Part shown: positions 248 through 57,013 of the stretch, piece after piece | How the letters are laid out: each line of letters begins with the position of its first letter | Numbering within the stretch: the stretch's first letter is position 1 | Source of the DNA: a virus | Lineage: Duplodnaviria > Caudoviricetes | Virus record (IMG/VR): IMGVR_UViG_3300036770_005357 | Strand: one strand, 5' to 3' | Length of the DNA: 64,000 bases | Made by a program: the position numbers and the translations under genes | The notes under the pieces: generated by a model | Databases searched by the model: none | Told to the model about the DNA's origin: nothing | What the model saw: only the letters and a program-made list of their open reading frames with translations

Positions 248-664
248 ATGAGTTTCTTGGATGACATAGTTAAACAATATCCTATAAAAAACAATCAGTG
301 GAAATTTGTAAGTGATGATGATTTATCGTTGTTTTTTTATATTAATACCGAGATACATTATTCTAATTTACCCGAAGGAATTTATAGTGATGTCACGAGA
401 TATTTTGTAAGGAAAATTTATCCGTTGAATTATAAAATATCAAATGTTAAATTAGAAAAGTCGTTGAGGTTAGATCCTTGGAACAGAGAATTCAAATGTT
501 TTCCGTTTGATAAGTGTGTGGGAAACAATGTGTATGGTTGGGACGGCGATGTTTACGGATGGATTGCTATAAGAGATGTAGCTTATGAAAATGAAAGAGC
601 TTATGTAATTACAACAACCGTTAATAATAAAAAGGTATATTGTTTAGATATATTGAGGGGATAA
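248..664 (+). CDS. hypothetical protein
   Basis: 138-aa ORF, co-oriented and abutting the next gene. Confidence 0.6.
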   Translation: MSFLDDIVKQYPIKNNQWKFVSDDDLSLFFYINTEIHYSNLPEGIYSDVTRYFVRKIYPLNYKISNVKLEKSLRLDPWNREFKCFPFDKCVGNNVYGWDGDVYGWIAIRDVAYENERAYVITTTVNNKKVYCLDILRG

Positions 665-669
665 TAGTC

Positions 670-1041
670 ATGGAATATTTTATTGATAAAAGACTTTATA
701 TAAGTAACGGCAAAAAAGGTAGAGGTATATACACAAACGAACATATACCGGTTGATACCATAATAGAATATAGTCCAGTGATTACAAATTATGTTACTAG
801 TTGGCAAGATACGCCGTATGAACTTAAAAAAATGGCATTTAGTTTTCCTCAAGGAAGTGACAATTATGTAATCGCATTGGGTTATATTTGTTTATATAAT
901 CACGACGATAACAACAATGCACATTGGTATACTGATGAAGGTGGTGTTATTATAAAAACTGTTAGAGATATTAATATTGGCGAAGAAGTTTGTATACATT
1001 ATGGAGATGCATATTGGAGCGGTGGATGGCCAAAATATTAA
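670..1041 (+). CDS. SET-domain protein (lysine methyltransferase-like)
   Basis: KGRGIYT motif, LYNHDD (NHS equivalent), RDINIGEEVCIHYG..YW; ATG at 670 preferred over the track start at 640. Confidence 0.85.
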   Translation: MEYFIDKRLYISNGKKGRGIYTNEHIPVDTIIEYSPVITNYVTSWQDTPYELKKMAFSFPQGSDNYVIALGYICLYNHDDNNNAHWYTDEGGVIIKTVRDINIGEEVCIHYGDAYWSGGWPKY

Positions 1042-1155: not shown

Positions 1156-4100
1156 ATGAAAGTTTTAAATTTATTAAAATTGTTTATTGCATTGTTATTT
1201 TTGATTGTTAATATCAATGCACAGGTTGTAACAAATACAGCCACATTGTATTCATCGGTAACTCAAGCTGATAATACTATTGTTCCTTCTGTACCCATAC
1301 CAATTACAATTGTCAGAACGAATGGAAGAATAGCAGAAATTTCTTTGAATATTGGTAATGTTTCACAGAATGCAAAACAAATTAATTTAAGGGTATATGA
1401 ATTAATTTATACCACAAATGTTGTTGAGTCACCGCTCACAAATTCTACTACAACCGGTGGAAGCACTGGTGGTACAACGGGCGGAAGTACTGGAGGTACA
1501 ACAGACGGTGGCACGACGGGTGGAAGCACTGGAAGTACCGGAGGTACAACGGATGGAGGTACAACAGACGGTGGCACGACGGGTGGAAGCACTGGAAGTA
1601 CCGGAGGTACAACGGATGGAGGTACAACAGACGGAACAACGGGTGGTTCTACTGGTGGAAGCACCGGAAGCACTGGTGGAAGCACTGGTGGTACAATATC
1701 AACAAATTATGTATATGTAACAAATAATGTTACACTAAATGTTACATTACAAACACAAACTGGTACAACGAACGATGTACAGATACCTGCTCAAACTATT
1801 TGGCATAACGATAAATTAGAAAACATATTGTTTGATATAACGAGTTTACCGGCTGATGCAATTATTGTACGGTTTAGAATATTGGATTACATTTACGACG
1901 AAAATGGTAATTTAGTTGGGCCACAAGGTTCAGGCACAAATAGTGGAGGTACCGGAACAGGTGGATCTGGTACAGGTACCGGAGGAAGTGATACGGGTGG
2001 ATCTGGTACAGGTACTGGCGGTGGCACAATTAGCCCACCACCACCTTCAGCGGATGCTGTACAATTTCCAGTTGAAGTACTTGGTGCTGATCAACATACA
2101 GAAGAATTTAAATTGGTTCTTAATGATAATTTAAATGATATCTACGGCGCAAGATTCACTATACACGGTTTAGGATTTACAAATAAAGCCTCGGTTAGTA
2201 TTAATGGATCACAATGGATTCCATTAAATAACAGAACGGTTATATTTCCAAGAAAATTTGAAAGAATATGGGTCGGAATTGGTGGTTTTCAAAACACATT
2301 AACAATGGTATTACCATTTGCCAGTAACAACATTATTCCTAGCGTAACTAATACGATTAAATTTAAGTTTAATGATATCACAAAACAAACCGTTGGATAT
2401 AGAGTATTAAATGCTGATATTGTAAGAAGACAGGATACCGCTGAAAAAGAATATACATTTGGACATCTTACAGGCAGGTTTTATACAAATACAGTTTATA
2501 ACTACACGCCTACAACACTTGCTACAACCAAGGTTATTGATGATCCTAAAAATTGGACTCCAGCATCAAGTGATCCTGTCGTAATTAATCAAGGAAAAGA
2601 TTTGTGGTTTAATGGTAATATTTCAGAACGAGGAGTCGCTTTAAATGCTAAGTGTGGTGATTGTCATTTTACAGACGGATATGATTTGAAGTATTTCAAT
2701 TATAGTGATAAATCAATTATAGCACGAAGTAAATATCATGGTTTGAGCGAGCAACAAGGTTTAGCATTAGCATCTTATATTCGTAGTTTGGATGTGCCAT
2801 ATCAAGAAAAAGGCAGACCTTGGAATCCACTTTATCAACCCGGACCCGGCATGAGTACTGTGCCAATTGACAATTGGGCTGCTGGTGCAGGCATGGATTG
2901 GGTATTAGATGATGATATAAAATCATTTAATTATATTTTTCCTAACGGAACACAAGATGGAATTGTATACAATGGTGTAGTTCAACCAATAGACATAAAC
3001 AAAGCATACAACATTCATGAAATACCAATTGCAATGCAACTGCCAGATTGGAATCATTGGTTGCCTAAAGTTCATTTGAAAGATAGTGCGCCTGAAATCT
3101 GGGATTGGAGTTTGACGAAAGATGGTGGCAGTGGTCGTAGATTCTTTGATTGGTTTATGGGTAGTATACCAAAAGATCAAGGAATGAAAGGTCTTGTTCA
3201 AATAATGAGATCATATGGAGAAAATACTGGTTATCAGTTGGTTCACATGGATCAATTCTTTCAGAAGAAATATTTTGATGCTGGAAAACGAATTCAATTC
3301 ATGAATGACATAAGAATGGCGTATCGTCATTGGGTAACCGTAAGAACATTAGAAATCATGCAAAAATGGAAGATGCAAGATTTGGGTCATGATATTCTTG
3401 AAGATAATGCTAATACAAGAGATCAATGGGGAGAAAGAGGAGCAAGATCATATATTGATTTAGGTAAGTTAGATAAAATCAAAGCACAATTTGGTAACAG
3501 TTATACGAATGTATTCAATGATAGAAGATGGTTTGCGAACAGTTTGCCTTTCCATCTAGCTCCACACATTGGAAATCTTGTAGCAGTGACGGATCAAAAC
3601 GATCCTAATTTCACTTATGAACCTTATGGTGATCAGTCTCCACAATGGTATCAACTACAAATGTATCTTGATGATAGCAATAGAATGCCAGAATATAACA
3701 TAATTGATTGGGGATATTTACATAACTTCTTGTGGGGAGCAACAAGTCAATGGGGACAATTAGCAAACTACAGTTTATATACAGGTAAACACAATGCTTT
3801 ACAATTCATAAACACTTTAAAATCATATGAAGCATATGCATTTAATGGAGATTACAAAGGTTTGCTTGAAGGGCTTTTAGATGATCATCATCCGCACATA
3901 AGATTATTTGGAGGTACTGTTCTTTTACATGCCGATAGTTCAAGTGCAAATAAATTTAATGAGTTCACAATGCATTATATTGATGCGTTACATACAAAAG
4001 AAAAGAAAGACATGATGGTCGGCATGTACAATCAAATACATAAAATACAAATAGATGTATTAGAACAAAATCCACAGATTGCTGACTATAATAATCTTAC

Positions 4101-4248
4101 AATGTCCGAAAACTTTTTAAGATACATGGGCGGTGATCCAAGTCTAATTCAAAGATTTGTTAATTTCAGAAAATCAAAATGGCCTAATGATACTTGGACA
4201 AGTCAGATCAAACATCTTTGGCCTCAACCATTCTATCCAGCATTGTAA
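1156..4248 (+). CDS. secreted multi-domain protein with G/T/S linkers and a c-type heme-binding motif (CxxCH)
   Basis: Signal peptide MKVLNLLKLFIALLFLIVNINA|Q; CGDCH at nt 2653-2667; GGST/GGTT low-complexity linkers. Confidence 0.75.
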   Translation: MKVLNLLKLFIALLFLIVNINAQVVTNTATLYSSVTQADNTIVPSVPIPITIVRTNGRIAEISLNIGNVSQNAKQINLRVYELIYTTNVVESPLTNSTTTGGSTGGTTGGSTGGTTDGGTTGGSTGSTGGTTDGGTTDGGTTGGSTGSTGGTTDGGTTDGTTGGSTGGSTGSTGGSTGGTISTNYVYVTNNVTLNVTLQTQTGTTNDVQIPAQTIWHNDKLENILFDITSLPADAIIVRFRILDYIYDENGNLVGPQGSGTNSGGTGTGGSGTGTGGSDTGGSGTGTGGGTISPPPPSADAVQFPVEVLGADQHTEEFKLVLNDNLNDIYGARFTIHGLGFTNKASVSINGSQWIPLNNRTVIFPRKFERIWVGIGGFQNTLTMVLPFASNNIIPSVTNTIKFKFNDITKQTVGYRVLNADIVRRQDTAEKEYTFGHLTGRFYTNTVYNYTPTTLATTKVIDDPKNWTPASSDPVVINQGKDLWFNGNISERGVALNAKCGDCHFTDGYDLKYFNYSDKSIIARSKYHGLSEQQGLALASYIRSLDVPYQEKGRPWNPLYQPGPGMSTVPIDNWAAGAGMDWVLDDDIKSFNYIFPNGTQDGIVYNGVVQPIDINKAYNIHEIPIAMQLPDWNHWLPKVHLKDSAPEIWDWSLTKDGGSGRRFFDWFMGSIPKDQGMKGLVQIMRSYGENTGYQLVHMDQFFQKKYFDAGKRIQFMNDIRMAYRHWVTVRTLEIMQKWKMQDLGHDILEDNANTRDQWGERGARSYIDLGKLDKIKAQFGNSYTNVFNDRRWFANSLPFHLAPHIGNLVAVTDQNDPNFTYEPYGDQSPQWYQLQMYLDDSNRMPEYNIIDWGYLHNFLWGATSQWGQLANYSLYTGKHNALQFINTLKSYEAYAFNGDYKGLLEGLLDDHHPHIRLFGGTVLLHADSSSANKFNEFTMHYIDALHTKEKKDMMVGMYNQIHKIQIDVLEQNPQIADYNNLTMSENFLRYMGGDPSLIQRFVNFRKSKWPNDTWTSQIKHLWPQPFYPAL
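1491..1634 (+). repeat. 63-bp perfect tandem repeat (~2.3 copies) encoding a GGTTD/GST linker
   Basis: 1501-1563 is identical to 1564-1626 and the period continues into both flanks. Confidence 0.9.
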
Positions 4249-4254
4249 AAAGTA

Positions 4255-4283
4255 TTGACACGGTTGAAACATTGTTGTATAGT
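4255..4283 (+). promoter_or_regulatory. sigma70-type promoter
   Basis: TTGACA-N17-TATAGT directly after the stop of the upstream gene, 9 nt before ATG 4293. Confidence 0.8.
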
Positions 4284-27714: not shown

Positions 27715-28526
27715 AACACTTTAAACATATCGTCATCTACAGTTTGTTGTGATGTTGGTGTTACAAAGTATTTGGATAATACTTCATTTTTAGTTGGTTG
27801 TTGAACTACACCTTGATTTTCAAACTTGGTTTTCCAATCAGCCAACCATTTTCTTACATCGCCCGTATAAGATTTATTACCTACATGTACCAAATCAATG
27901 TTTGTATCTAAAAACACTTTACCACCCATTTGTTGCCACTTGAATCCCATGATGATATCTTCACTTACAAAGTGATTATTTGCATTAATTGTACATGCAC
28001 AAATATTCTTAGTTAATTCAGGAGCGCCTTCTTTTTCAGATACATAAAATTCATTTTCATTTTCAAATAACTGTTTAACACAATTCTTTGATAACTTCAA
28101 GAAACCACATCCTAATCCATTTACTTCAAGTATACCGTTGTCGTCAGGTACTATATTGAAATTACTCGCATTTTCTCCAAGTGCTTTAAAAGCATACAAT
28201 TCTTCATCGTCATTCTTTTTACGATATGTACCACCAATCATATCTTTATCACTTAGAACTAACTTTACAAAATCAGATGGGTTCCAACCAATATCGCTGT
28301 CAATAAAGAACAATACATCCACAGCACTTTGATAAGCTACTCTAAAATAATCATTTCTAGCTCTTTGTATCAAACTATCAAAACAAAGAAAGTATGGTAA
28401 AACTTTGATGTTGTTTTGTTCACAGAGTGGTATGGTATTGATTAGACTGTCCATGAAACGGACATCAAATCTACCATCATAACTTGGTGCTGCTAGTAAA
28501 ACTGTAATAGGTTTATTTTCGTTCAT
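27711..28526 (-). CDS. GT-A fold glycosyltransferase-like protein
   Basis: DSLIQRARN, FFIDSDIGW, LGCGFLKL, VSED, HVG. Confidence 0.75.
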   Translation of the reverse strand: MNENKPITVLLAAPSYDGRFDVRFMDSLINTIPLCEQNNIKVLPYFLCFDSLIQRARNDYFRVAYQSAVDVLFFIDSDIGWNPSDFVKLVLSDKDMIGGTYRKKNDDEELYAFKALGENASNFNIVPDDNGILEVNGLGCGFLKLSKNCVKQLFENENEFYVSEKEGAPELTKNICACTINANNHFVSEDIIMGFKWQQMGGKVFLDTNIDLVHVGNKSYTGDVRKWLADWKTKFENQGVVQQPTKNEVLSKYFVTPTSQQTVDDDMFKVL

Positions 28527-29347
28527 ATGTTGTAATTAAAAGCTTTATAAAACCAATTGTATTTTTCTGTAATATAGTTGCAGTTGTGTCTGCCCAATAC
28601 ACTAAGATAATCTTCGGGTACCTGTTCAATTTTATTTCTTATTAAGTGATCGCCAAATGGTCTATAGAAGACATCATTTTCTTTGGTAAATTGAGCTATA
28701 TTATTGAAATCGTGTTGGTAATATGGTATTTCAAGATAGTTGTATATTTTTCTTACTTCTTGTTCTGGATTTGCACTGAAGTCTTCAAACTTTATGAATA
28801 AGCACTTCTGTGCAATCTTTCTTACTATAACATCATATATCACATCAATAGGAGCACATAGTGGTGGTGCTACATTTAGATACATATCTACTCTTTTATC
28901 TACAGTAGTACCTTTCATTTCATTCCAGTTTTGCATGCCAGCGTCTAGGTGTTGATTGTCTCTAAACTTCTTTTCTAGACTGCTTACGATACTTCTTAGA
29001 TCTCGTATCATTATGATAACTTTTGGATTGGGATCAAACCAATTTACGAAATCATATGTTACACTCCAACCTCTACACTTATCTACAACATATTTTCTGT
29101 CAGTAACATTATTATAAAAACCATATAAAGCACTTTTACAAAATCCTTTGAATCCATTGTCCATGATCTTACTATCTTGTGCTTTGAATTCTATTGCGTT
29201 TGTATAGTTATTTTTTGCATTGAGCAATAGATCACAAAGACCGCTTGTTGGACTGCCGTATATGTCTGGATTTTGAGCAAGCAAATTTTGCACGAGAGTT
29301 GAACCTGCGCGAGGCATGCTACTTTGGAAAAACACTTTTTCTACCAT
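28523..29347 (-). CDS. sulfotransferase (PAPS-dependent, Sulfotransfer_3-like)
   Basis: 5'-PSB loop MPRAGSTL, VDKCR.W, 3'-PB IIMIRDLRSIVSS, IKFEDF..NPE. Confidence 0.85.
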   Translation of the reverse strand: MVEKVFFQSSMPRAGSTLVQNLLAQNPDIYGSPTSGLCDLLLNAKNNYTNAIEFKAQDSKIMDNGFKGFCKSALYGFYNNVTDRKYVVDKCRGWSVTYDFVNWFDPNPKVIIMIRDLRSIVSSLEKKFRDNQHLDAGMQNWNEMKGTTVDKRVDMYLNVAPPLCAPIDVIYDVIVRKIAQKCLFIKFEDFSANPEQEVRKIYNYLEIPYYQHDFNNIAQFTKENDVFYRPFGDHLIRNKIEQVPEDYLSVLGRHNCNYITEKYNWFYKAFNYNI

Positions 29348-30552: not shown

Positions 30553-33500
30553 TTACGCTGTTGTATAAGTTATTTCTACGCCTAATAATCTAGCGTCTAC
30601 AGCTAAAGTATCACTTGCATTCGTCGCATCTCTATAAATTTCAAATATAATTGGTTTACTATTAGCCAATGAACCGCTTATTGTAATTGCACTTGTTGCC
30701 GGACTTATGTGCATATCATATGCTTTAAGCAATGTATCTGTAGCTGTTTGACCTGTACCCAGATTGCCTGTAGAATTAAGTGTATCATCATCCGAATAGA
30801 TTCTACCTCTTAATCCCCAAACAACTGCGCCTGAACCACCGTTGGCTGACCAATAGAATTTGCCTGTTACTGTACTGGAACCATTCCAATTATTTGGAAG
30901 TACTCGCATTACTTGTACATATTCAATTATACCTGCGTCAAAATCTAGAGTATCATAATTTACTCTAGCACTGCCTGTTAATTCTGTGCTATTTACACCG
31001 GACCCACTGAATGATCTTGGAATCATTTCGCCTGCACCTATCCAAATGTTTGAACTATTTGGAACAGTTTTCCATACAGTTTTTGTGCCTGTTGTATAAA
31101 GTACACTACCACTTGTACCAGCACTATTATTACCATCATAATAAGCACCGTTTAGTCTCATACTACCCGATACTTGCAATTTTTGTGATGGTTTATTTGT
31201 ACCTATACCTACTCTACTACCGCTTATAACGAAGTCATTGGCATTGTATTTACCCATGAATATTCTATCATCACTCCAAACATCTACTACAGGCAGACCA
31301 CTTACATCATTTACAGTGAATAGTGAACCTGACAATGTATCTGTAACATTGAAGAGTGTACCTGTACCACCATCTGTTCTTAATACGCTTAAATTACTAC
31401 CGCTTCTATATACTTGTAATTTAGCGGATAAGCTACCGGATACGCCTATACCTACGAAGCTACCGGTACTATGTTGCAATCCTTGACCAAAGGCACTACC
31501 ACTTGCGAATATCAAGTTAGCTATATTTAATTGATTACTACCAGCAGGTTTTCCTGCGTCAATATTGTGTCCTATTATTATATTACTGTTGCCTGTCGTT
31601 ATATTATCACCAGCATCAACGCCTACAGCTATATTTCGTTGACCACTTGTTAATGTACCTAAAGCGCCGTAACCGAATGCGTTGTTATCATTACCGGTCG
31701 TATTATTTACTAAAGAATTATATCCAAATGCACTATTAGCAATACCAATTGTATTAGCTTGTAATGCTTGATGTCCGAAAGCACTATTTTGTATACCCGT
31801 TGTATTACTTGCTAACGCTAAATAACCGAAAGCATTATTGTTATTGGTAGTATTATTTAGTAATGCATAGGCACCAAAAGCATTACTACGATTGCCGGAT
31901 GAGTTATTATTTAACGCTTTATTACCAAATGCTGTATTAGCACCACCCGTTTTATTTAATCTCAATGCGAAATAACCAAATGCACTGTTTAATCTACCAC
32001 TTGTATTTTGGTAGAGTGCTTGATTTCCAAATGCACTATTTCTATTTCCAGTTGTATTACTTGCTAAAGCATAATTACCGAAAGCATTATTATTATTTGT
32101 TATGTTATTATAAAGCGCTTTATAACCAAATGAATTATTAGCACTTCCACTTATATTTTTAAATCCAGACAGTCTTCCAAAACCATTATTACTTGATCCT
32201 AATACATTACTTGCAAGTGCTAAATGACCAAAAGCACTATTAATATTACCCGTTATATTAGCAATTAAACTACCATATCCAAACGCACTGTTTCTGGTTC
32301 CAATTGTATTGTTCTTTAATGCTAGATGACCAAACGCTGAATTTATACCAGTTGTATTACTTGCTAATGCTCTATAACCGAAAGCATTATTATTATTTGT
32401 AGTATTATTCTTTAATGCTTCATAACCAAATGCACTGTTAAAATTACCGACTAAATTTGCTCTTAAAGCGTTTGTACCAAATGCACTATTTCTTGTACCA
32501 CTTGTATTAAATATAGAAGCGTAATGACCAAATGCATTGTTGTCAACACCTGTTGTATTATTAAGAAGAGCACTGTTACCAAATGCATTGTTTCTTACAC
32601 CTGTTGTATTAACTTTTAATGATTGATAACCAAAAGCACTGTTAAAATTACCTATTGTATTACTTGCTAATGCTTGATGACCAAATGCACTGTTTTTATA
32701 ACCAGTTGTATTGCTTGCTAGAGCAAAGTAACCGAAAGCATTGTTATTGTTAGTGGTATTTGCTCTGAGAGCATACATACCAAATGCATTATTATTATTT
32801 CCAGCAGTATTTAATCTGAGAGCAGATAAGCCTATTGAATTATTATTATTACCCGTTAAATTATCAAATTGTGATGCTCCACCTATAGCAATATTATATA
32901 ATCCGGATGTGTGTTTATTTAAAGCATAAGCACCGAAAGCAGTATTATACCTACCAGTCGTGTTACTTGCTAACGCTCTGTGACCAAATGCACTATTATT
33001 ATCTCCGGTTATATTATTTTGTAATGCTTGATGACCAAATGCACTATTAGCAGTACCAGTTGTATTGCTTGCTAATGCTCTATAACCAAATGCGTTATTA
33101 TTGTTTGTGGTGTTATTATATAATGCTTGATGACCAAACGCATTATTTCTTACACCGATTTGATTACTTGTTAATGCTAAGTGACCGAACGCATTATTTT
33201 GTGTACCTGTAGTATTACTACCTAAAGCTTTATAACCAAATGCGTTATTGTTATCACCCGTTGTATTTACAACAAGACTCAACTCGCCGAATGCGTTGTT
33301 TCTAGAACCAATCGTGTTATCTCTTAAAGCAGCTAAACCAAAAGCATTGTTTCTTACACCCGCCGTATTATTTGTTAAAGCGGCATAACCAAATGCACTA
33401 TTTCGGGTACCGATTGTATTGTCTTGTAACGCATAATTACCAAATGCTGTATTATATCTACCACTTGTATTACTTGCTAATGCAAAACTACCAAATGCAC

Positions 33501-36500
33501 TATTATTTGCAGCTGTATTAGTATAGAGTGCTTTATAACCGAAAGCACTGTTACTACTGCTTATTGTATTCGCGTTAAGTGCTCTATGTCCAAATGCACT
33601 ATTTCTTTGACCGGTAGTATTATTTTTTAACGCGTAGTAACCGAATGCGTTATTATTGCTTGTAGTATTGTTATATAAAGCAGCGGTACCAACAGCATTA
33701 TTATTATTACCTACAGTATTATTTTGTAAAGCCGATCTACCTATTGCAATATTATTACGACCAGTTGTATTAAATCTTAAAGCAGCTACGCCAAATGCAT
33801 TATTTTGATAACCAAATGTGTTGCTTGCTAATGCTAATATACCAAATGCATTGTTATTATTACCAGTAGTATTGCTTATTAAAGCTTTATAACCAAAAGC
33901 ACTATTACCAGCACCAGTCGTATTATTTTGTAATGTTAAATGACCAAAGGCACTGTTTTGTACACCAGTAGTATTGCTTGCTAGAGCATAACTACCAAAT
34001 GCATTGTTAGCATTTGTCGTATTACTACTTAAAGCACTTCTACCAAATGCGTTATTATTACTACCAATTGTATTATCTGTTAAAGCTCTTCTGCCAAATC
34101 CATTGTTATTTATACCGGAAATATTATCTCTCAAAGCCCAATCACCAAAAGCATTGTTGCTGTCACCAATTGTATTGTTTTGTAAAGCACCATTACCAAA
34201 TCCGTTGTTTAGTATACCAGTAGTATTATTTTGTAAAACACCATTACCAAATGCATTGTTGTTTCTTCCGATCGTATTATTTCTTAATGCGGCATAACCA
34301 AATGCATTGTTTTGTGTACCGGTTGTATTTGATCTTAAAGCAAATGCACCGAATGCACTATTTCCTCCCGCTATATTCGTATATAGTGCTCCATAACCGA
34401 ATGCACTGTTACTACTGCTTATTGTATTAGCTTGTAATGCTCTATGACCAAAAGCGCTGTTACGATATCCTGTTGTATTACTTCTCAAAGCATAAGCACC
34501 AAACGCATTATTATTATTCGTAGTATTATTTTGTAAAGCTACATTACCAAATGCGTTGTTATTGTTACCTATACTATTACTATTTAAAGCACCATTGCCA
34601 AATGCATTATTATATTGACCACTTGTATTATTTGTTAAAGCTTGTGTACCAAACGCGTTATTTCTTGTACCCGTTGTATTATTTACTAAAGCTCTATCAC
34701 CAAAAGCATTATTTCTAACACCGATTGTATTACTTGCTAGAGATTGATAACCAAATGCACTATTTTGTACACCGGTTGTATTATTTTGTAATGCTTGATG
34801 ACCAAAAGCACTATTAGCAGTACCAGTTGTATTGCTTGCTAAAGCATAAAATCCGAAAGCATTATTATTGTTTGTGGTATTTGCTTGTAAAGCATTTCTA
34901 CCAAAAGCATTGTTACTACCACCGGTTTGATTTGATGCTAATGCTAATGTACCAAAAGCATTATTATTAGCAGCGTCAACAATATTATGACCGGCTCTAT
35001 AACCAAATGCATTGTTATTGTTACCAATAGTAACACTATATAATGTTCTATAACCAAATCCACTGTTATTTACACCGGTTGTATTAAATCTTAATGTATT
35101 TACACCAAACGCATTATTTCTCGCACCTATCGTATTACTTTGTAATGCATTTATTCCGAAAGCATTATTATTACTACCTACAGTATTTTTATACAGTGCA
35201 TAATGACCGAACGCTGCATTTTGTACACCACTTGTACTATTTCTAAGTGCTGAATTACCAAATGCGTTATTGACTATACCCGTGGTATTACTTGCTAAAG
35301 CTAAATAACCGAAAGCATTATTTCCAAAACCAATTGTATTGTTTTGCAATGCTTTATGACCGAAAGCACTATTAACATTACCAGTTGTATTACTTGCTAA
35401 TGACAAGTGACCGAAAGCACTGTTACCATGACCTGTTGTATTATTTGTTAATGACTTATAACCAAAAGCATTATTGTTGTTGGTTGTATTAGCTACTAAA
35501 GCATAAAATCCAAAGGCATTGTTATTATTACCCGATACATTATTTACTAAAGTTTGTGAACCAACTGCTGTGTTGCCATTACCAACTGTATTTGTTACCA
35601 AAGCGAAATTGCCTAGAGCTGTATTTTTTATACCAATGGTATTTGCATATAAAGCTCCTCGTCCAAATGCGATATTGTTGTTACCCGATGTATTTAGTCT
35701 TAAAGCATGACTTCCAAATGCACTGTTCCAATATCCGGTTGTATTAAGTTGTAATGCTAAATATCCAAATGCAGCATTTTCATATCCGGTTATATTATTT
35801 GCTAATGCTAAACTACCAAATGCACTGTTACTATATCCTCTATTTGTATAAAGTGCTAAATAACCGAAAGCACTGTTACTGCCACTGATTGTATTTGCAT
35901 TAAGTGCTCTGTGACCAAATGCACTATTTTTAGTTCCGGTTGTATTGCTTCGGAGAGCCATATAACCAAACGCGTTATTATTACTCGTTGTATTATTATA
36001 TAATGCTTGAAAGCCTACAGCGTTATTATTATTACCAATTGTATTATTAGTTAAAGCACTTCTTCCTACAGCAACATTTCTAATACCACTTGTATTAAAT
36101 ACTAAAGCGTTTGTACCTAATGCTGTATTATTTGTTCCCGTTGAATTTTGTTGTAATGCTTGAAGACCTACAGCAACATTATAATTACCGAATGTATTAA
36201 ACATTAAAGCCGCTTGACCAAATGCACTGTTAAAATTACCGGTAGTATTACTAGCTAAAGCTATGTCACCGAATGCACTGTTTTGTTTACCTCTATTTGT
36301 ATATAGTGCTTTATAACCAAATGCACTGTTACTGCTACTAATTGTATTAGCTTGTAACGCTCTATGACCAAATGCACTGTTTCTATGTCCGGTTGTGTTA
36401 CTTGCTAATGCAAAATTACCGAAAGCGTTATTACCACTTGTTGTATTATTTAAAAGAGTTTGATAACCGAATGCATTATTATTGTCACCAACTAAATTAT

Positions 36501-38847
36501 TATTTAGAGATTGCATTCCAAATGCATTATTTAATACACCGGTTGTGTTACTAAATAATGCATTTAATCCTACAGCAGTATTTCGCCCTCCGGTTGTATT
36601 GTTAAATAAAGCTGCACTTCCTATTGCTACATTATATTTGCCGAATGTATTTTTATATAAAGTAGTGCTCCCAAATGCGACATTAGCTCTGCCTGTAGTA
36701 TTATTTTTTAACGATTGATTGCCGAATGCGCTATTAGAATCTCCTTTGTTCGTATAAAGTGATTTATAACCGAAAGCGCTATTACTACCACTGATAGTAT
36801 TTGCTCTTAATGCTTGATGACCGAAAGCACTGTTTTGTGCACCAGTTGTATTGCTTGCTAAAGCCAAATAGCCAAAAGCATTATTGTTACTAGTTGAATT
36901 ATTTCTTAAAGCATAAAAACCGAATGCATTATTTCTATTAACAGGCGTACCCAATCCTAAAGCACCAACACCAACAGAAACATTGTTAATACCTGATGTA
37001 TTAGAATATAAAGAACCTACACCAACAGCTGTATTTGACGCTCCTGTAGTATTTTTATTTAAAGCATTATTACCAAACGCACTATTATTTGTACCAATCG
37101 TATTAAACATTAACGATTTATAACCAAACGCACTATTACCACCACCTGTTGTATTTTTATTTAAAGCATAATAACCAAATGCATTATTATTATTACCTAT
37201 TGTATTATTATTTAAAGCGCCGTATCCAAATGCATTATTTTTATAACCCGAAATATTACTTGTAAGAGCTAAATTACCAAATGCATTGTTATAATTACCA
37301 CTTGTATTATTCTTCAGTGATTGATTACCGAAAGCATTGTTAGATATACCAGTTGTATTGCTTGCTAGAGCAAGATAACCGAATGCACTGTTAAAATTAC
37401 CTATTGTATTATTCTTCAATGCTTGAAGACCAAATGCACTATTAGCTACACCTGTTGTATTACTTGCTAAAGCATAACTACCAAAAGCACTATTATTATT
37501 TGTAAGATTATTATACAAAGCATAAATACCGAATGCGTTATTACGAAACCCCGATACATTTTTAGTTAATGATTTTGCACCAAATGCTGTATTTGAACCG
37601 CCTGTACGATTGAGTCTTAATGCGAAATAACCGAATCCGCTATTGAAAGTACCACTTGTATTTTGATATAATGTTTGATGGCCAAATGCAGAATTAACTG
37701 CGCCTGTTGTATTACTTGCTAGTGCTAAATAACCGAAAGCATTATTACTGTCACCTGTGTGTTTACTTAAAGCGTAAAATCCAAATGCATTGTTTCTATT
37801 ACCAATTAAATTATATTGTAAAGCATTTCCACCAAATGCATTATTTCTAACGCCACTCGTATTTCTTCTTAAAGCACCAACGCCAAATGCACTATTAACA
37901 TTACCAGTTGTATTGCTTGCTAAAGCTATATAACCAAAAGCGCTATTACCTTGACCAATCGTATTATTTAGTAATGTTTTGTGGCCAAATGCACTGTTGC
38001 TTATTCCAGTTGTATTGCTTGCTAACGCTAGATAACCGAAAGCATTATTAGCATTTGTAGTGTTGTTTAGTAAAGCACCGTGCCCAAATGCGTTGTTATT
38101 ATTACCTCCTAAATTAGCTTGTAATGTATCAACTCCGAATGCGTTATTGTTTACTCCAGTTACATTTACTTTTAATGCATAAGCACCGAAAGCGTTGTTA
38201 AAATTTGCATTGGAACTTGCTAATGCTGCGGATCCAAATGCTGAATTTAAAATACCAGATGTATTTGTTATCAAACTTTGATGTCCCACAGCAGTATTTG
38301 CATAACCTGTAGTATTACCACTTAATGCTTGTCTACCAACTGCGGTATTTGCATAACCTGTAGTATTGTTATACATTGCATAACTACCGAAAGCACTATT
38401 ACTATTACCAGTTGTATTGTTGTATAGAGTGCCTCTACCAAATGCTGTATTTAATGTACCACCTGTATTAAAATTTAAAGCACCAGCGCCTACAGCAGTA
38501 TTGCTTATTACAACACCACCACCTCTACCAACTCCTATACCTTGAATTACAGCAGATTGACTTACATATAAATTTCCTTGTACTGATAATTTAGAACCGG
38601 GACTTGTTGTACCTATGCCGATATTACCACCGGTTTCATACATTACGCTATTGCCAATAGAATTGGCAGCCGTAAACTTAGGAATATAATTTGTTGTACC
38701 CGCTATATTTGTGGTTACTATACTACCACTGAAGCTTCCCGTAAAACTTTTCGCTTCTACACTGTTCTCAAACCTTACAAAGCTACTGCTTACAGTGATA
38801 TTACCGCTGCTTGTTATAAAGCTATTTTTTATTTGAATTTTAGCCAT
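30553..38847 (-). CDS. giant fibre/adhesin with ~165 14-aa N.AFG..AL..N.TG repeats
   Basis: Continuous ORF; start ATG 38847 (the track start is TTG); repeats span ~31570-38500; C-terminal beta-sandwich domain. Confidence 0.9.
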   Translation of the reverse strand: MAKIQIKNSFITSSGNITVSSSFVRFENSVEAKSFTGSFSGSIVTTNIAGTTNYIPKFTAANSIGNSVMYETGGNIGIGTTSPGSKLSVQGNLYVSQSAVIQGIGVGRGGGVVISNTAVGAGALNFNTGGTLNTAFGRGTLYNNTTGNSNSAFGSYAMYNNTTGYANTAVGRQALSGNTTGYANTAVGHQSLITNTSGILNSAFGSAALASSNANFNNAFGAYALKVNVTGVNNNAFGVDTLQANLGGNNNNAFGHGALLNNTTNANNAFGYLALASNTTGISNSAFGHKTLLNNTIGQGNSAFGYIALASNTTGNVNSAFGVGALRRNTSGVRNNAFGGNALQYNLIGNRNNAFGFYALSKHTGDSNNAFGYLALASNTTGAVNSAFGHQTLYQNTSGTFNSGFGYFALRLNRTGGSNTAFGAKSLTKNVSGFRNNAFGIYALYNNLTNNNSAFGSYALASNTTGVANSAFGLQALKNNTIGNFNSAFGYLALASNTTGISNNAFGNQSLKNNTSGNYNNAFGNLALTSNISGYKNNAFGYGALNNNTIGNNNNAFGYYALNKNTTGGGNSAFGYKSLMFNTIGTNNSAFGNNALNKNTTGASNTAVGVGSLYSNTSGINNVSVGVGALGLGTPVNRNNAFGFYALRNNSTSNNNAFGYLALASNTTGAQNSAFGHQALRANTISGSNSAFGYKSLYTNKGDSNSAFGNQSLKNNTTGRANVAFGSTTLYKNTFGKYNVAIGSAALFNNTTGGRNTAVGLNALFSNTTGVLNNAFGMQSLNNNLVGDNNNAFGYQTLLNNTTSGNNAFGNFALASNTTGHRNSAFGHRALQANTISSSNSAFGYKALYTNRGKQNSAFGDIALASNTTGNFNSAFGQAALMFNTFGNYNVAVGLQALQQNSTGTNNTALGTNALVFNTSGIRNVAVGRSALTNNTIGNNNNAVGFQALYNNTTSNNNAFGYMALRSNTTGTKNSAFGHRALNANTISGSNSAFGYLALYTNRGYSNSAFGSLALANNITGYENAAFGYLALQLNTTGYWNSAFGSHALRLNTSGNNNIAFGRGALYANTIGIKNTALGNFALVTNTVGNGNTAVGSQTLVNNVSGNNNNAFGFYALVANTTNNNNAFGYKSLTNNTTGHGNSAFGHLSLASNTTGNVNSAFGHKALQNNTIGFGNNAFGYLALASNTTGIVNNAFGNSALRNSTSGVQNAAFGHYALYKNTVGSNNNAFGINALQSNTIGARNNAFGVNTLRFNTTGVNNSGFGYRTLYSVTIGNNNNAFGYRAGHNIVDAANNNAFGTLALASNQTGGSNNAFGRNALQANTTNNNNAFGFYALASNTTGTANSAFGHQALQNNTTGVQNSAFGYQSLASNTIGVRNNAFGDRALVNNTTGTRNNAFGTQALTNNTSGQYNNAFGNGALNSNSIGNNNNAFGNVALQNNTTNNNNAFGAYALRSNTTGYRNSAFGHRALQANTISSSNSAFGYGALYTNIAGGNSAFGAFALRSNTTGTQNNAFGYAALRNNTIGRNNNAFGNGVLQNNTTGILNNGFGNGALQNNTIGDSNNAFGDWALRDNISGINNNGFGRRALTDNTIGSNNNAFGRSALSSNTTNANNAFGSYALASNTTGVQNSAFGHLTLQNNTTGAGNSAFGYKALISNTTGNNNNAFGILALASNTFGYQNNAFGVAALRFNTTGRNNIAIGRSALQNNTVGNNNNAVGTAALYNNTTSNNNAFGYYALKNNTTGQRNSAFGHRALNANTISSSNSAFGYKALYTNTAANNSAFGSFALASNTSGRYNTAFGNYALQDNTIGTRNSAFGYAALTNNTAGVRNNAFGLAALRDNTIGSRNNAFGELSLVVNTTGDNNNAFGYKALGSNTTGTQNNAFGHLALTSNQIGVRNNAFGHQALYNNTTNNNNAFGYRALASNTTGTANSAFGHQALQNNITGDNNSAFGHRALASNTTGRYNTAFGAYALNKHTSGLYNIAIGGASQFDNLTGNNNNSIGLSALRLNTAGNNNNAFGMYALRANTTNNNNAFGYFALASNTTGYKNSAFGHQALASNTIGNFNSAFGYQSLKVNTTGVRNNAFGNSALLNNTTGVDNNAFGHYASIFNTSGTRNSAFGTNALRANLVGNFNSAFGYEALKNNTTNNNNAFGYRALASNTTGINSAFGHLALKNNTIGTRNSAFGYGSLIANITGNINSAFGHLALASNVLGSSNNGFGRLSGFKNISGSANNSFGYKALYNNITNNNNAFGNYALASNTTGNRNSAFGNQALYQNTSGRLNSAFGYFALRLNKTGGANTAFGNKALNNNSSGNRSNAFGAYALLNNTTNNNNAFGYLALASNTTGIQNSAFGHQALQANTIGIANSAFGYNSLVNNTTGNDNNAFGYGALGTLTSGQRNIAVGVDAGDNITTGNSNIIIGHNIDAGKPAGSNQLNIANLIFASGSAFGQGLQHSTGSFVGIGVSGSLSAKLQVYRSGSNLSVLRTDGGTGTLFNVTDTLSGSLFTVNDVSGLPVVDVWSDDRIFMGKYNANDFVISGSRVGIGTNKPSQKLQVSGSMRLNGAYYDGNNSAGTSGSVLYTTGTKTVWKTVPNSSNIWIGAGEMIPRSFSGSGVNSTELTGSARVNYDTLDFDAGIIEYVQVMRVLPNNWNGSSTVTGKFYWSANGGSGAVVWGLRGRIYSDDDTLNSTGNLGTGQTATDTLLKAYDMHISPATSAITISGSLANSKPIIFEIYRDATNASDTLAVDARLLGVEITYTTA

Positions 38848-38872
38848 AAATGTAGTCAATTATAAATATTAA

Positions 38873-42871: not shown

Positions 42872-42948
42872 CTGTTATATAAATAGTAACTATAAATATT
42901 CAATAACCAATCTTATTATTGATATTCTTTATAACAATTCATTTATTA

Positions 42949-43674
42949 TTACAATCCAAATCTAGTTTTAACCGCGGAATAATTTTGTGAAATTTCTGTC
43001 GATGTTAATTCTCTATTATATAGTTGAAACGAATAAATAGTACCTTTGAAATAAACTTGTCCAGACGTTCCAAATGCTAGACGCATTTGTTGTCCATTAA
43101 CATTCAACATTGTTCCATTAAAAAAAGTAGCTGAATTTTCTAAATTATTGTTAATATATATTTTAGCAGTCGCAGTTGTTGTATTATTAAATGTAGCTGA
43201 AACCATAACATTTGTACCAAAATTAATACTTGTTGTTCCAAATAGTTGATAAAAAGTACCACCAGCAGTTTTTGCGGCAAATTCAAGTTTTTGTGTTCCA
43301 CCACCATTATTGAATTGAAAATAAGGAACAATTGGATTTCCGCTTGCATCACAAATAGCAAAAAAAGGAATGCTTCCCAAAGCATACGACATGTTTAACC
43401 AAACACAACAACTAAAACCATTAAGATTTAAATTATTAGAACTAACTGTACCAACACTTATATAATCATTAGTACCATCAAAAACTATACCGCCACCGTT
43501 ACTTGCATTAAACGATGGACCGTTAGTCAAAGTTCCATTGTTACTTTTACCACTTAAATCTGTCCAAGTTGTTGCACCACCTTGTGCATAAGATCTTAAT
43601 TGTGCAGCATCATAGTTAATCAACAATCCACTTGTTACTATTTGTATACCACTTGCTGTTGCTCCTCTATACAT
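42949..43674 (-). CDS. LamG/concanavalin A-like lectin-domain protein
   Basis: IVTSGLLINYDAA...W.DLSG..NNGTL.NGP.F...IVFDGTNDY ... LYNRELT..EI.QNY.A.K.RFGL. Confidence 0.8.
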   Translation of the reverse strand: MYRGATASGIQIVTSGLLINYDAAQLRSYAQGGATTWTDLSGKSNNGTLTNGPSFNASNGGGIVFDGTNDYISVGTVSSNNLNLNGFSCCVWLNMSYALGSIPFFAICDASGNPIVPYFQFNNGGGTQKLEFAAKTAGGTFYQLFGTTSINFGTNVMVSATFNNTTTATAKIYINNNLENSATFFNGTMLNVNGQQMRLAFGTSGQVYFKGTIYSFQLYNRELTSTEISQNYSAVKTRFGL

Positions 43675-43679
43675 AAAAT

Positions 43680-47696: not shown

Positions 47697-47710
47697 ATAT
47701 TATAAATATT

Positions 47711-56140: not shown

Positions 56141-57013
56141 TTACTTAATTAAAGTCCAACCTTTATGAGATTTTATATGTCCTTTCTTTAAATTAGATAC
56201 TCCAGATCTAGACAATTTAAATTCAGTATAAAATTCATAAGCTGTACAAATTCGTGTTATATTTAAATTTGAGTTATAAAACTTGTAAATTGTTTTATCA
56301 TACGATGCATTATTTTCTCCCATATATAAACCAATTCTACTATCACTTAATTTTTTCCTAATTTCATTTGAATACTTTTTTCCTTTATTTGCAAGTCCTA
56401 TTTTCCGTTTATGATCTTCGCTTAGTTTTTTTCCTTTATTAAAAATATGTAGTTTTAATTTAGCAGCAGCTGTTAGTTTTATTCCTTTATGAACTTCTGA
56501 TAACTTTAATCTTATTTCTTCAGTTACTTTTCGGCCCGTATTTGCTTTACTAATTTTTTGTTTACTATACTCACTTAATTCACCACCTCGAGCGTCATAA
56601 TTGAGATTGTAACTCATTTTAGATTCAACCTTAACTATATCTAAGTATTTTTGTTCTACCAATAATAATTCTTCGCTTTTGACAAGTTCTATTATTTGAA
56701 ACTCAAAATTAGATTCGCCGTGTTTATTCCAAGCATTTTGTAAAAAATCATTGGGATGTTTATTTAATCGTAATACTCTTCTATGTTCATCCCATCTTTT
56801 TTGAATATTTTTAGAACTGCCTACATAATATTTTCCATCTATTTTATTAATTATCCTGTAAATCCCGCTTTTTATCGTAGTATCGTTCAAGATTTTTTCG
56901 CTTAATGTCTGTTCTGTTTCTAAGATAGTATCGCATTTGTCGTTCTCTTCTTTCTGCGATAAGTTCTTCAATTGGCCTGTTAAGTTTTTTTCTTCCCATA
57001 AATTATTATTCAT
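56141..57013 (-). mobile_element. free-standing GIY-YIG homing endonuclease with NUMOD3-like repeats
   Basis: SGIYRIINKIDGKYYVGSS..I..RW..H, E..Y, YNL; repeated S.EHKRKIG.ANKGK motifs. Confidence 0.88.

What the first reader, a model, noticed from the sequence alone, without database searches (positions are those of the whole stretch)
1156..4248. Phage-encoded secreted c-type heme protein (1030 aa)
Seen: cleavable signal peptide, beta-rich N-terminal domains joined by Gly/Thr/Ser linkers, a single CGDCH (nt 2653-2667) followed by DGYDLKYFNYSDKSIIARS.YHGL...GRPWNPLYQPGPG, and a long Trp-rich helical C-terminal region. Established: CxxCH in an exported protein is the covalent heme c attachment motif and needs host cytochrome c maturation. 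Inference: a redox or peroxidase-like or surface enzyme that the phage places in the host envelope. C-type cytochromes of this size are not a recognised phage auxiliary class. From memory the heme-domain block resembles uncharacterised bacterial hypothetical proteins, which I could not verify.
Basis: partly seen in the sequence, partly recalled or inferred. Interest (0 to 1): 0.75.

Follow-up and report, generated by a model that had tools for sequence, protein, structure and literature searches.

The report
Phage copy of unnamed secreted heme-c protein
An uncultured aquatic phage carries, and keeps under strong selection, a gene for an exported protein that almost certainly binds one heme covalently; it belongs to a large, unnamed bacterial family that probably acts on or binds polysaccharides, so the phage seems to equip its host's envelope with a sugar-directed redox protein.

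Summary
ORF 1156-4248 (+) encodes 1030 aa with a Sec-type signal peptide, two small beta modules joined by Gly/Thr/Ser linkers, and a 730-aa body. The protein's only two cysteines form CGDCH (nt 2653-2667).

The body belongs to a large bacterial family with no Pfam or NCBIfam model and no solved relative: about 890 clusters at 50% identity, mainly in Acidobacteriota, Verrucomicrobiota, Bacteroidota, Rhodothermota and Myxococcota. CxxCH is invariant. A His 23 residues later (His528) is kept in 253 of 258 homologs, and the heme domain of the window protein has no Met.

AlphaFold models (pLDDT 83-86) show three parts: a CBM6/35-like beta sandwich, a class I cytochrome c fold around CxxCH, and a helical domain with no convincing structural match.

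Long bacterial members add PA14, malectin, CBM4/9, discoidin and type IX secretion domains. This points to an extracellular, glycan-directed role.

The phage copies form one clade beside Verrucomicrobiota sequences. They occur as two paralogs (tandem or fused in relatives) and show dN/dS of 0.03-0.1.

Best reading: a host-derived, exported, bis-His mono-heme, glycan-directed redox protein. Its chemistry is unknown.

The parts
1156..4248 (+). Whole gene, 1030 codons plus stop; protein P0001
   Evidence: orthologs at 72-95% identity in metagenomes and three IMG/VR viral contigs
1156..1221 (+). Signal peptide, aa 1-22, predicted cleavage A22|Q23
   Evidence: Read from the sequence. The same junction is kept in phage orthologs although their leader sequences differ. 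No Cys, so not a lipoprotein.
1222..1440 (+). Phage-specific N-terminal beta module 1, aa 23-95
   Evidence: Absent from bacterial homologs (alignment A1); no family match
1441..1704 (+). Gly/Thr/Ser linker 1, aa 96-183, built from tandem repeats
   Evidence: Tandem Repeats Finder: 63-bp unit x2.3 at 100% match, plus 24-, 15- and 12-bp arrays. Length and composition vary among orthologs.
1705..1929 (+). Phage-specific N-terminal beta module 2, aa 184-258
   Evidence: Found only in this phage protein family. It is up to 96% identical even in proteins of the other paralog group. dN/dS 0.03.
1930..2052 (+). Gly/Ser/Thr linker 2, aa 259-299
2053..2520 (+). CBM6/35-like (PL4 domain III-like) beta sandwich, aa 300-455, with a phage-clade hairpin insertion at about aa 430-455
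   Evidence: AF2 pLDDT mostly above 90. VIA Z 8.6 to the 5ta0 C-terminal domain, 7.7 to the BcsB carbohydrate-binding domain, 6.9 to CBM35. Foldseek probability 0.97-1.0 to CBM6/CBM35. PF14683 is hit by 15 of 61 family members.
2551..2811 (+). Class I cytochrome c-like domain, aa 466-552
   Evidence: VIA matches to eight c-type cytochromes over model residues about 18-104: Z 5.1-5.9, rmsd 2.1-5.6 A (six at 2.1-3.6 A), 12-26% identity; examples 4pw9_B, 6h5l_B, 3mk7_C, 4o1w_A, 1h1o_B. Weak Cytochrom_C hits in 5 of 61 members.
2653..2667 (+). CGDCH heme c attachment motif (Cys500, Cys503, His504)
   Evidence: Invariant in 61 of 61 aligned sequences. 257 of 258 fetched homologs have CxxCH; the exception is a C-terminal fragment. 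These are the only Cys in the protein.
2737..2739 (+). His528, candidate sixth (distal) heme ligand
   Evidence: Invariant. CxxCH-x23-H is present in 253 of 258 homologs. The domain aa 456-552 has no Met and only these two His. The ligand role is an inference.
2812..3075 (+). Highly conserved Trp/Pro-rich loop region, aa 553-640 (GRPWNP.YQPGPG, WAAGAG, PDWN.WLP..H)
   Evidence: Densest run of invariant residues in the family; pLDDT above 90; dN/dS 0.03-0.1
3076..4245 (+). Helical domain, aa 641-1030, with conserved D643, E733, R790, W792, W831, Y832, Q835, D851 and Y854
   Evidence: AF2 helices. No convincing match in PDB, Swiss-Prot AFDB, BFVD or named Atlas clusters.
4255..4283 (+). Near-consensus sigma-70-type promoter (TTGACA-17-TATAGT) for the next gene (ATG at 4294); marks the 3' boundary of the unit
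   Evidence: (11 of 12 matches). Metagenome contigs diverge from the window right at 4250-4251 (table 7).

Best explanation
The gene is a phage-borne member of a large, unnamed bacterial family of exported modular proteins.

The family core has four parts:
- a CBM6/35-like beta sandwich;
- a class I cytochrome c domain that carries one covalently bound heme on Cys500 and Cys503, with His504 proximal and, by inference, His528 distal (bis-His);
- a very conserved Trp/Pro-rich loop region;
- a helical domain of unknown fold with a cluster of conserved Asp, Glu, Arg, Tyr, Gln and Trp residues.

History (inferred from the tree and from comparisons between copies): the phage lineage took the gene once from a Verrucomicrobiota-like donor, which is probably its host phylum. 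It then duplicated the gene and added its own N-terminal extension of two small beta modules on flexible repeat linkers. That extension is exchanged between copies.

Mode of action (inferred, not shown): during infection the precursor is exported by Sec. The host's cytochrome c maturation system attaches heme. The mature protein works in the host envelope as a glycan-directed redox protein. The beta sandwich, and in bacterial relatives extra lectin-like modules, hold it on a polysaccharide. The heme then passes electrons to or from a site formed by the loop region and the helical domain, or to a partner enzyme.

Shown here: the ORF, the signal peptide, motif invariance, the folds, family size and spread, monophyly of the phage copies, and purifying selection. 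Inferred: heme occupancy, bis-His ligation, glycan targeting, and any benefit to the phage.
For: Heme c:
- CxxCH is invariant in 61 of 61 aligned sequences and present in 257 of 258 homologs.
- It uses the only two Cys of the protein.
- It lies in a region that matches eight solved class I c-type cytochromes at Z 5.1-5.9.
- The protein has an export signal.
- Non-significant but in-register phmmer alignments to cytochrome c4 cover both the N-terminal helix with CxxCH and the C-terminal LS...YI..L helix.

Bis-His ligation:
- His528 is invariant at a fixed 23-residue spacing.
- There is no Met in residues 456-552.

Family:
- 879 hits and 893 clusters at 50% identity.
- At least 380 matching stretches in species-representative genomes of many phyla.
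- No Pfam, NCBIfam or PDB sequence match.

Glycan direction:
- CBM-like fold and PF14683 hits in 15 of 61 members.
- Long homologs carry PA14, Malectin, CBM_4_9, F5/8 type C, GLEYA, CHB_HEX_C and type IX secretion CHU_C/Por tails.
- Conserved acidic, aromatic and Arg residues in the helical domain.

Phage ownership and function:
- Phage genes lie on both sides in the window and in independent contigs.
- GC matches the window.
- The phage clade is monophyletic (support 100) and groups with Verrucomicrobiota (support 99).
- The phage AmtB is 73-78% identical to bacterial AmtB proteins, and nearly all of the few that carry names (six of seven) are from Verrucomicrobiota.
- dN/dS is 0.03-0.1 over the heme, loop and helical parts.
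- Tandem paralogs occur in relatives.
- The gene occurs in at least 9 sequencing studies of aquatic habitats.
Against: - No experiment exists on any member of the family, so heme occupancy and activity are unproven.
- The window protein itself gives no Pfam cytochrome hit at E<=1, and the structural Z-scores for the 70-80-residue heme domain are modest.
- The helical domain resembles nothing characterised, so a catalytic site is conjecture.
- Bacterial loci show no conserved neighbour, such as an LPMO, reductase or CAZyme, that would define a pathway.
- Bis-His heme argues against direct peroxidase or oxygenase chemistry at the iron.
- The tree places the phage clade on a long branch with deviant composition, so the Verrucomicrobiota origin is not secure.
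- The phage-specific N-terminal modules have no assigned role.
Confidence: 0.6

Rival explanations
1. It is a glycan-binding or glycan-cleaving protein (lectin, hydrolase or lyase) whose work is done by the helical domain and the beta sandwich. The heme is only a structural or redox-sensing cofactor. The phage uses the protein to open, trim or mask capsule or exopolysaccharide, for release or for superinfection exclusion.
For: CBM-like fold and lectin-type fusions. A conserved His/Asp/Glu/Arg/Tyr/Gln/Trp set in the loop and helical parts resembles carbohydrate-active sites. A sulfatase lies next to the homolog in a related phage contig, and the window holds a sulfotransferase. Six-coordinate bis-His heme is a poor catalyst (inference).
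Against: No similarity to any GH, PL or CE fold or family. The heme motif and its surroundings are the most strictly conserved part of the protein, which is unusual for a merely structural cofactor.
Confidence: 0.15
2. It is a periplasmic respiratory-type electron carrier, an auxiliary metabolic gene that boosts host energy metabolism in the way proposed for phage soxD or phage multi-heme cytochromes.
For: Class I cytochrome c fold. Phage c-type cytochrome genes have precedents (scan notes). The phage also carries amtB/glnK, so it invests in host physiology.
Against: The heme domain is under 10% of a 1030-aa protein. Bacterial relatives are fused to lectin-like modules and type IX secretion tails, which means cell-surface or extracellular location. 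There are no conserved respiratory neighbours. The predicted bis-His ligation is not that of typical soluble respiratory class I carriers, which use His/Met.
Confidence: 0.1
3. The CxxCH does not bind heme. It is a redox-active disulfide or a metal site in a non-heme protein.
For: No Pfam cytochrome model reaches significance on the window protein. No experimental data exist.
Against: The His of CxxCH is invariant, as is a second His at fixed spacing. With only two Cys a Cys-rich Zn site is impossible. The surrounding fold matches solved c-type cytochromes with CxxCH in register. All members carry export signals, as heme c attachment requires.
Confidence: 0.05
4. It is a virion fibre or decoration protein, and the N-terminal beta modules and linkers are a stalk.
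For: Repeat linkers and small beta modules resemble fibre or decoration architecture. The modules are exchanged between paralogs as host-range modules are. The window is rich in large fibre genes.
Against: A cleavable Sec signal peptide is incompatible with cytoplasmic virion assembly. The gene lies in the early or auxiliary region on the opposite strand from the structural block. No PHROG structural family matches apart from one low-complexity hit. No BFVD structural match.
Confidence: 0.05

Closest known systems
The unnamed bacterial family itself (examples: hypothetical proteins of Verrucomicrobia MAG UWPOB_VERRUCO2, Archangium gephyra, Hymenobacter montanus, Maribacter sp., Terriglobia MAGs)
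   Same: Residues 300-1030 align end to end at 28-37% identity (E down to 1e-98). Every invariant residue is kept: CxxCH, His528, W556/P558/Q561/P564, W635, D643 and W831. The predicted fold is the same (AFDB clusters at E 5e-33, TM 0.70).
   Different: The phage proteins add about 280 N-terminal residues (two beta modules plus repeat linkers) that no bacterial member has. They also carry clade-specific insertions in the sandwich and the helical domain, have low GC, and come as two phage paralog groups.
Cbp2D-type secreted modular cytochromes of Cellvibrio japonicus (CjX183 domain; PMC8981238)
   Same: A secreted multi-domain protein in which a small class I c-type cytochrome domain with one CxxCH is tethered to carbohydrate-binding modules. 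CjX183 was shown to reduce LPMOs. This is the best functional analogy for a glycan-directed heme c module.
   Different: No detectable sequence relationship was found. CjX183 is His/Met ligated and has a stabilising disulfide. Here the domain has no Met, has a conserved second His and no further Cys. Cbp2D has CBM2, YceI-like and FN3 domains, not this sandwich plus helical domain. No LPMO is seen near the phage gene or the bacterial genes.
Planctomycete-specific cytochrome c proteins (PSCyt1-3; PF07635, PF07583, PF07627) of the PVC superphylum
   Same: Large exported proteins of Verrucomicrobia and Planctomycetes with a single heme c motif joined to domains of unknown function. They are found near sulfatases and CBM proteins, and their function is unknown (PMC5615132).
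   Different: No PSCyt model matches the window protein or any of 61 family members at E<=1. The partner domains differ.
Phage soxD auxiliary metabolic genes (PMC8190135)
   Same: A c-type cytochrome gene (CxxCH) carried on viral contigs and thought to act in the host periplasm.
   Different: SoxD is a subunit of a defined sulfur-oxidation enzyme encoded beside soxC. The present protein is ten times larger than a heme domain, stands alone, and belongs to no known pathway.

Membership tests
Unnamed CBM-like + cytochrome c + helical-domain family (bacterial hypothetical proteins) | Full-length alignment of the roughly 640-730-aa core with significant E-values | tested here: met
   E 1e-98 to 1e-62, with 47-98% of the query region (residues 300-1030) covered; full-length for the nearest bacterial members. 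893 clusters at 50% identity.
Unnamed CBM-like + cytochrome c + helical-domain family (bacterial hypothetical proteins) | Invariant CxxCH, His at +23, the W-P-Q-P loop motif, and W/D/W in the later part | tested here: met
   All 22 invariant columns of the 61-sequence alignment are present in the window protein; motif counts.
Class I c-type cytochrome (Pfam Cytochrom_C PF00034 / Cytochrome_CBB3 PF13442) | CxxCH in an exported polypeptide | tested here: met
Class I c-type cytochrome (Pfam Cytochrom_C PF00034 / Cytochrome_CBB3 PF13442) | Class I fold around the motif | tested here: met
   Eight solved class I c-type cytochromes align to model residues about 18-104: Z 5.1-5.9, rmsd 2.1-5.6 A (six at 2.1-3.6 A), 12-26% identity. 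The Z values are modest, as expected for a domain of 70-80 residues.
Class I c-type cytochrome (Pfam Cytochrom_C PF00034 / Cytochrome_CBB3 PF13442) | Score above the Pfam gathering threshold | tested here: not met
   No hit at E<=1 for the window protein. Only 5 of 61 relatives reach E 0.034 or worse.
Class I c-type cytochrome (Pfam Cytochrom_C PF00034 / Cytochrome_CBB3 PF13442) | Distal Met ligand | tested here: not met
   No Met in residues 456-552. The invariant His528 occupies the stretch just before the C-terminal helix.
Class I c-type cytochrome (Pfam Cytochrom_C PF00034 / Cytochrome_CBB3 PF13442) | Covalently bound heme | not testable with these tools
   Needs heme staining, spectroscopy or mass spectrometry.
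CBM6/CBM35-like or PL4 domain III (PF14683) carbohydrate-binding beta sandwich | Jelly-roll fold | tested here: met
   VIA Z 8.6 (5ta0), 7.7 (BcsB), 6.9 (CBM35 2w46, 2wz8) over about 100-108 residues at rmsd 3.2-3.7 A. Foldseek probability 0.97-1.0.
CBM6/CBM35-like or PL4 domain III (PF14683) carbohydrate-binding beta sandwich | Pfam model match | tested here: inconclusive
   None for the window protein. 15 of 61 relatives match PF14683, best E 3e-5.
CBM6/CBM35-like or PL4 domain III (PF14683) carbohydrate-binding beta sandwich | Sugar binding | not testable with these tools
   Needs glycan arrays or affinity gels.
Planctomycete-specific cytochrome c (PSCyt1-3) | Match to PF07635, PF07583 or PF07627 | tested here: not met
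   Absent from the hit lists at E<=1.
Cbp2D / X183-type LPMO-reducing cytochromes | His/Met class I heme domain tethered to a CBM, with an LPMO partner in the organism | tested here: not met
   No Met ligand is available. No LPMO was found in the window ORFs scanned or in the clustered neighbours. Only the general architecture is shared.
Phage auxiliary (host-derived) gene | Cellular homologs, with the phage copies nested as a clade; flanked by phage genes; under purifying selection | tested here: met

The most novel reading that the evidence does not exclude
The family is a new class of extracellular, polysaccharide-directed heme-c oxidoreductase: an undescribed 'auxiliary activity'-type carbohydrate enzyme whose catalytic site is formed by the conserved loop and the novel helical domain, fed by a bis-His heme. 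Phages of Verrucomicrobiota have captured it, duplicated it and re-tooled it with their own exchangeable N-terminal modules. They would use it to remodel host or environmental glycans during infection.
Probability: 0.3. Interest if true: 0.8.

Novelty: new variant of a known kind. Interest (0 to 1): 0.55.

Why it matters
Two things would matter if the reading holds.

First, the family is very large (about 900 clusters at 50% identity) and is spread across the main polysaccharide-degrading soil and water phyla. Yet it has no Pfam model, no solved structure and no assay. A heme c domain wired to a CBM-like module and a new helical domain is a concrete candidate for unknown extracellular redox chemistry on glycans. 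Bacterial electron donors for oxidative polysaccharide breakdown are still poorly known.

Second, a phage lineage found in many aquatic metagenomes keeps one or two copies under strong purifying selection and has added its own swappable N-terminal module. This says the protein gives a measurable benefit during infection. It also extends the short list of phage-borne c-type cytochromes from small respiratory carriers to a large modular envelope protein. Finally, it offers a compact, cysteine-free, well-modelled member for expression.

Tried and rejected
- Sequence searches of the window protein gave only low-complexity linker hits or nothing: Pfam, NCBIfam, PHROGs and PDB, and a 61-sequence profile against PDB.
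- blastn and tblastn against 50,697 GenBank phage records found no match to the gene.
- Foldseek against PDB, for the whole body and for the heme plus helical part, gave nothing at E<=0.001.
- For the helical domain, VIA-wide gave only designed helical repeats and TPR-like rows at Z<=7.2 with rmsd 6-9 A. I treat these as generic.
- Swiss-Prot AFDB, BFVD and named Atlas clusters gave no usable match. This does not prove that the fold is new.
- Conserved gene neighbours were sought in 79 bacterial loci by all-against-all clustering. None was shared beyond close relatives. The small clusters were GT4, a Ser/Thr kinase, Wza-like export, peptidases, ROK and UvrC.
- No second copy of the gene was found in the window.
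- A cytochrome c maturation gene (PF01578) was searched in the one related IMG/VR record held, 85.6 kb and estimated 58% complete. None was found. This says little, because the record is a fragment and no whole genome is held for the window.
- BLASTP found no relationship between the two N-terminal modules.
- Expression: one metatranscriptome library holds three short contigs inside the gene at 94-100% identity. Contigs of an RNA library cannot exclude carried-over DNA, so transcription is not shown.
- I did not use complex prediction, because the report makes no protein-protein binding claim.
Full report

ORF 1156-4248 on the + strand is open and encodes 1030 residues. The N-terminus (MKVLNLLKLFIALLFLIVNINA|Q) has the basic, hydrophobic and small-residue layout of a signal peptidase I substrate. 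Four phage orthologs have different leader sequences but the same (A/S)|Q-(V/I)(V/I)TN junction.

Residues 23-95 and 184-258 are small beta-rich modules. They are separated by Gly/Thr/Ser linkers whose DNA is partly tandem repeat, including a perfect 63-bp unit present 2.3 times.

Its two Cys are the only Cys in the protein. By my arithmetic, two Cys and 24 His placed at random in 1030 positions would form CxxCH about 5 times in 100,000.

Trp is enriched in residues 553-640 (5.7%) and 641-1030 (3.6%).

THE SURROUNDINGS ARE PHAGE

The - strand from about 30 to 60 kb holds huge tail-fibre and virion proteins and a homing endonuclease. The + strand holds ThyX, a T4-type RNA ligase, an ATP-dependent DNA ligase, a metallophosphatase, a SET-domain protein, an FkbM methyltransferase and a sulfotransferase, plus an AmtB ammonium transporter.

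The gene's GC (0.34-0.35) equals that of the window. No whole genome is held for the window.

WHAT THE PROTEIN BELONGS TO

The window protein has no Pfam, NCBIfam or PDB sequence match, and GenBank phages hold no relative. Residues 300-1030, however, find 879 proteins in the word-indexed search and 893 clusters at 50% identity in the exhaustive search. These fall into three sets:

- 72-95% identical proteins of 970-1017 aa from metagenomes, including three IMG/VR viral contigs.
- A second set at 40-44% identity with the same overall architecture.
- A very large set of 640-700-aa bacterial proteins at 28-37% identity, all without Pfam domains in the core.

A scan of one genome per prokaryote species found at least 380 encoding stretches. 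They lie in Acidobacteriota (Terriglobia, Bryobacterales), Verrucomicrobiota, Bacteroidota (Hymenobacter, Maribacter, Aquimarina, Cytophagaceae), Rhodothermales, Myxococcota (Archangium), Chloroflexota, Armatimonadota and others.

In a 61-sequence alignment the invariant columns include C500, C503, H504, G508, D510, L511, S517, I521, R524, H528, W556, P558, Q561, P564, W635, D643 and W831. Of the 258 family proteins fetched, 257 have CxxCH (256 have exactly one and one has two). The single exception is a C-terminal fragment.

STRUCTURE

AlphaFold2 was run on the 61-sequence alignment. It gave pLDDT 86 and pTM 0.90 for residues 300-1030, and pLDDT 83 and pTM 0.86 for residues 449-1030.

Residues 300-430 form a jelly-roll beta sandwich:
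- VIA Z 8.6 to the C-terminal domain of GH86 (5ta0), 7.7 to the BcsB carbohydrate-binding domain, and 6.9 to CBM35.
- Foldseek probability 0.97-1.0 to CBM6 and CBM35.
- 15 of 61 family members hit PF14683, the CBM-like domain III of PL4 lyases.

Residues about 466-552 align with eight different solved class I c-type cytochromes (SorU 4pw9_B, 6h5l_B, CcoP 3mk7_C, 4o1w_A, c4 1h1o_B, c552 9vr0, QcrC 7rh5_O, and the quinohemoprotein ADH domain 1kb0). The values are Z 5.1-5.9, rmsd 2.1-5.6 A (six at 2.1-3.6 A) and 12-26% identity. Each Z is modest, as expected for 60-80 aligned residues. The recurrence, the in-register CxxCH and the weak in-register phmmer alignments to cytochrome c4 together make the assignment sound.

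The helical domain (641-1030) finds only designed repeats and TPR-like proteins at high rmsd. It finds nothing useful in Swiss-Prot AFDB, BFVD or named Atlas clusters. In AFDB clusters, only uncharacterised family members and two 'cytochrome c domain-containing' proteins match.

THE HEME SITE

The heme domain of the window protein (residues 456-552) has no Met and only two His, namely His504 of the motif and His528. The spacing CxxCH-x23-H is kept in 253 of 258 homologs. His528 lies just before the C-terminal helix (LSEQQGLALASYIRSL), the stretch where cbb3/c4-type class I cytochromes carry the distal Met (and general knowledge of the class).

I therefore infer bis-His, six-coordinate heme. 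That fits electron transfer better than peroxidase chemistry. His640 (93% conserved), outside the domain, is the only alternative.

With two Cys in total, a Zn site or an inter-domain disulfide is not an option.

HINTS TO FUNCTION

Bacterial loci share no conserved neighbour, so the protein appears self-contained. Multi-domain bacterial members add PA14, Malectin, CBM_4_9, F5/8 type C, GLEYA, CHB_HEX_C, Ig-like, fn3 and PKD domains, and type IX secretion tails (CHU_C, Por_Secre_tail).

This is the accessory-domain repertoire of extracellular carbohydrate-active proteins. Together with the CBM-like sandwich and the conserved Asp/Glu/Arg/Tyr/Gln/Trp cluster of the loop and helical parts, it supports a glycan-directed role. 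The chemistry is unknown.

The best functional analogy is Cbp2D of Cellvibrio japonicus. There a class I heme c domain tethered to CBMs reduces LPMOs (PMC8981238). That domain is His/Met ligated, and no sequence relationship to it was found. The PSCyt proteins of the PVC superphylum are a second analogy (PMC5615132), but their Pfam models do not match.

THE PHAGE STORY

A maximum-likelihood tree of 80 sequences puts all eight phage proteins in one clade (support 100). The clade splits into two paralog groups and joins two Verrucomicrobiota subclades (support 99). The phage branch is long and its composition deviates, so the donor is probable, not proven.

Independently, the phage AmtB is 73-78% identical to bacterial AmtB proteins, and nearly all of the few that carry names (six of seven) are from Verrucomicrobiota. 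A Verrucomicrobiota host is therefore my working inference.

In a 137-kb related contig the two paralogs sit in tandem and are 39% identical. In a Global Ocean Sampling fragment the second body follows the first in the same frame through a linker. The window has one copy.

Against orthologs, dN/dS is 0.03-0.1 for the heme, loop and helical parts.

The gene is mosaic. Against the IMG/VR ortholog L009, the last 730 codons have dS of 0-0.11, while the first 300 have dS near 1. Module 2 is up to 96% identical in proteins whose bodies are only 42% identical to the window's. So the phage-specific N-terminal extension is exchanged between copies. Its role is unknown; it may be a spacer, an anchor or a targeting device.

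Flanks differ between strains right at the stop codon. A near-consensus promoter for the next gene follows at 4255-4283. The gene therefore behaves as a self-contained cassette.

The gene is present in runs of at least nine studies, from subsurface, marine, riverine, freshwater and lagoon samples. One RNA library holds short pieces of it, which does not prove transcription.

HOW IT MOST LIKELY WORKS (INFERENCE)

1. The precursor is exported by Sec.
2. The leader is cleaved before Gln23.
3. The host's cytochrome c maturation system attaches heme.
4. The protein acts in the envelope of the infected cell as a glycan-bound redox module.

The signal peptide argues against virion assembly. The size, the fusions in relatives and the lack of respiratory neighbours argue against a plain respiratory carrier.

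NOVELTY

Phage c-type cytochromes have precedents: soxD on two viral contigs (PMC8190135) and multi-heme cases noted elsewhere in this scan. The scan had also already met the bacterial family on other DNA and reached the same reading (e1-2380767).

New here are the phage capture of this family, its duplication, the phage-only exchangeable N-terminal modules, and the argument for bis-His ligation. I rate it a new variant of a known kind (modular secreted heme c proteins; host-derived phage genes), with moderate interest. Interest would be high if the family proves to be a new carbohydrate-directed oxidoreductase.

Noticed in passing
AmtB is 73-78% identical to bacterial AmtB proteins, and nearly all of the few named ones (six of seven) are from Verrucomicrobiota. 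This gives an independent hint to the host phylum.
   Followed up: partly
window 1156-2052 compared with L009:4723-5620, and proteins P0018/P0020: The gene is a mosaic. The first 300 codons have dS near 1 against an ortholog whose last 730 codons have dS of 0-0.11. N-terminal module 2 is 83-96% identical in proteins of the other paralog group, whose bodies are only 42-44% identical. The N-terminal extension is therefore exchanged between copies or strains.
   Followed up: partly
L001:10001-16016 and protein P0016: Related phages carry two paralogs in tandem (39% identical). In a Global Ocean Sampling fragment a second body follows the first in frame through a Gly/Thr linker, which suggests that the two copies work together.
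   Followed up: partly
window 1491-1634: A perfect 63-bp tandem repeat (2.3 copies, 100% match) encodes part of the Gly/Thr/Ser linker. This implies recent expansion. Linker length and composition differ among orthologs (GT-rich against PT-rich).
   Followed up: yes
L004:7756-9354: In a related 37-kb phage contig a sulfatase gene (PF00884 plus SGSH_C) lies just upstream of the heme-protein gene. The window itself encodes a sulfotransferase (28523-29347). These phages therefore carry several genes for sulfated glycans.
   Followed up: no
window 640-1041 (+): A SET-domain protein (PF00856, E 1.5e-11) is encoded directly upstream of the heme-protein gene. Lysine methyltransferase domains are unusual in phages.
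   Followed up: no
window 4255-4283 and 4294: A near-consensus sigma-70-type promoter (TTGACA-17-TATAGT) lies 7 bases after the stop codon and drives a small gene that starts MTKP. Metagenome contigs from three studies diverge from the window exactly here, so the downstream neighbour is variable.
   Followed up: partly
window 30553-38859 and 38873-52165 (- strand): Very large structural genes (2768, 1332, 1338 and 1484 aa) match PHROG virion, tail-spike and collagen-like fibre families through many repeated stretches. A homing endonuclease (56141-57013) sits among the structural genes.
   Followed up: no
L005:10028-10615 and L006:775-2686: In two bacterial loci a peroxiredoxin/redoxin gene lies next to the family member. 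In one of them CcdA-like DsbD_TM and DsbD_N genes also lie nearby. The association was not conserved across the 79 loci examined.
   Followed up: partly
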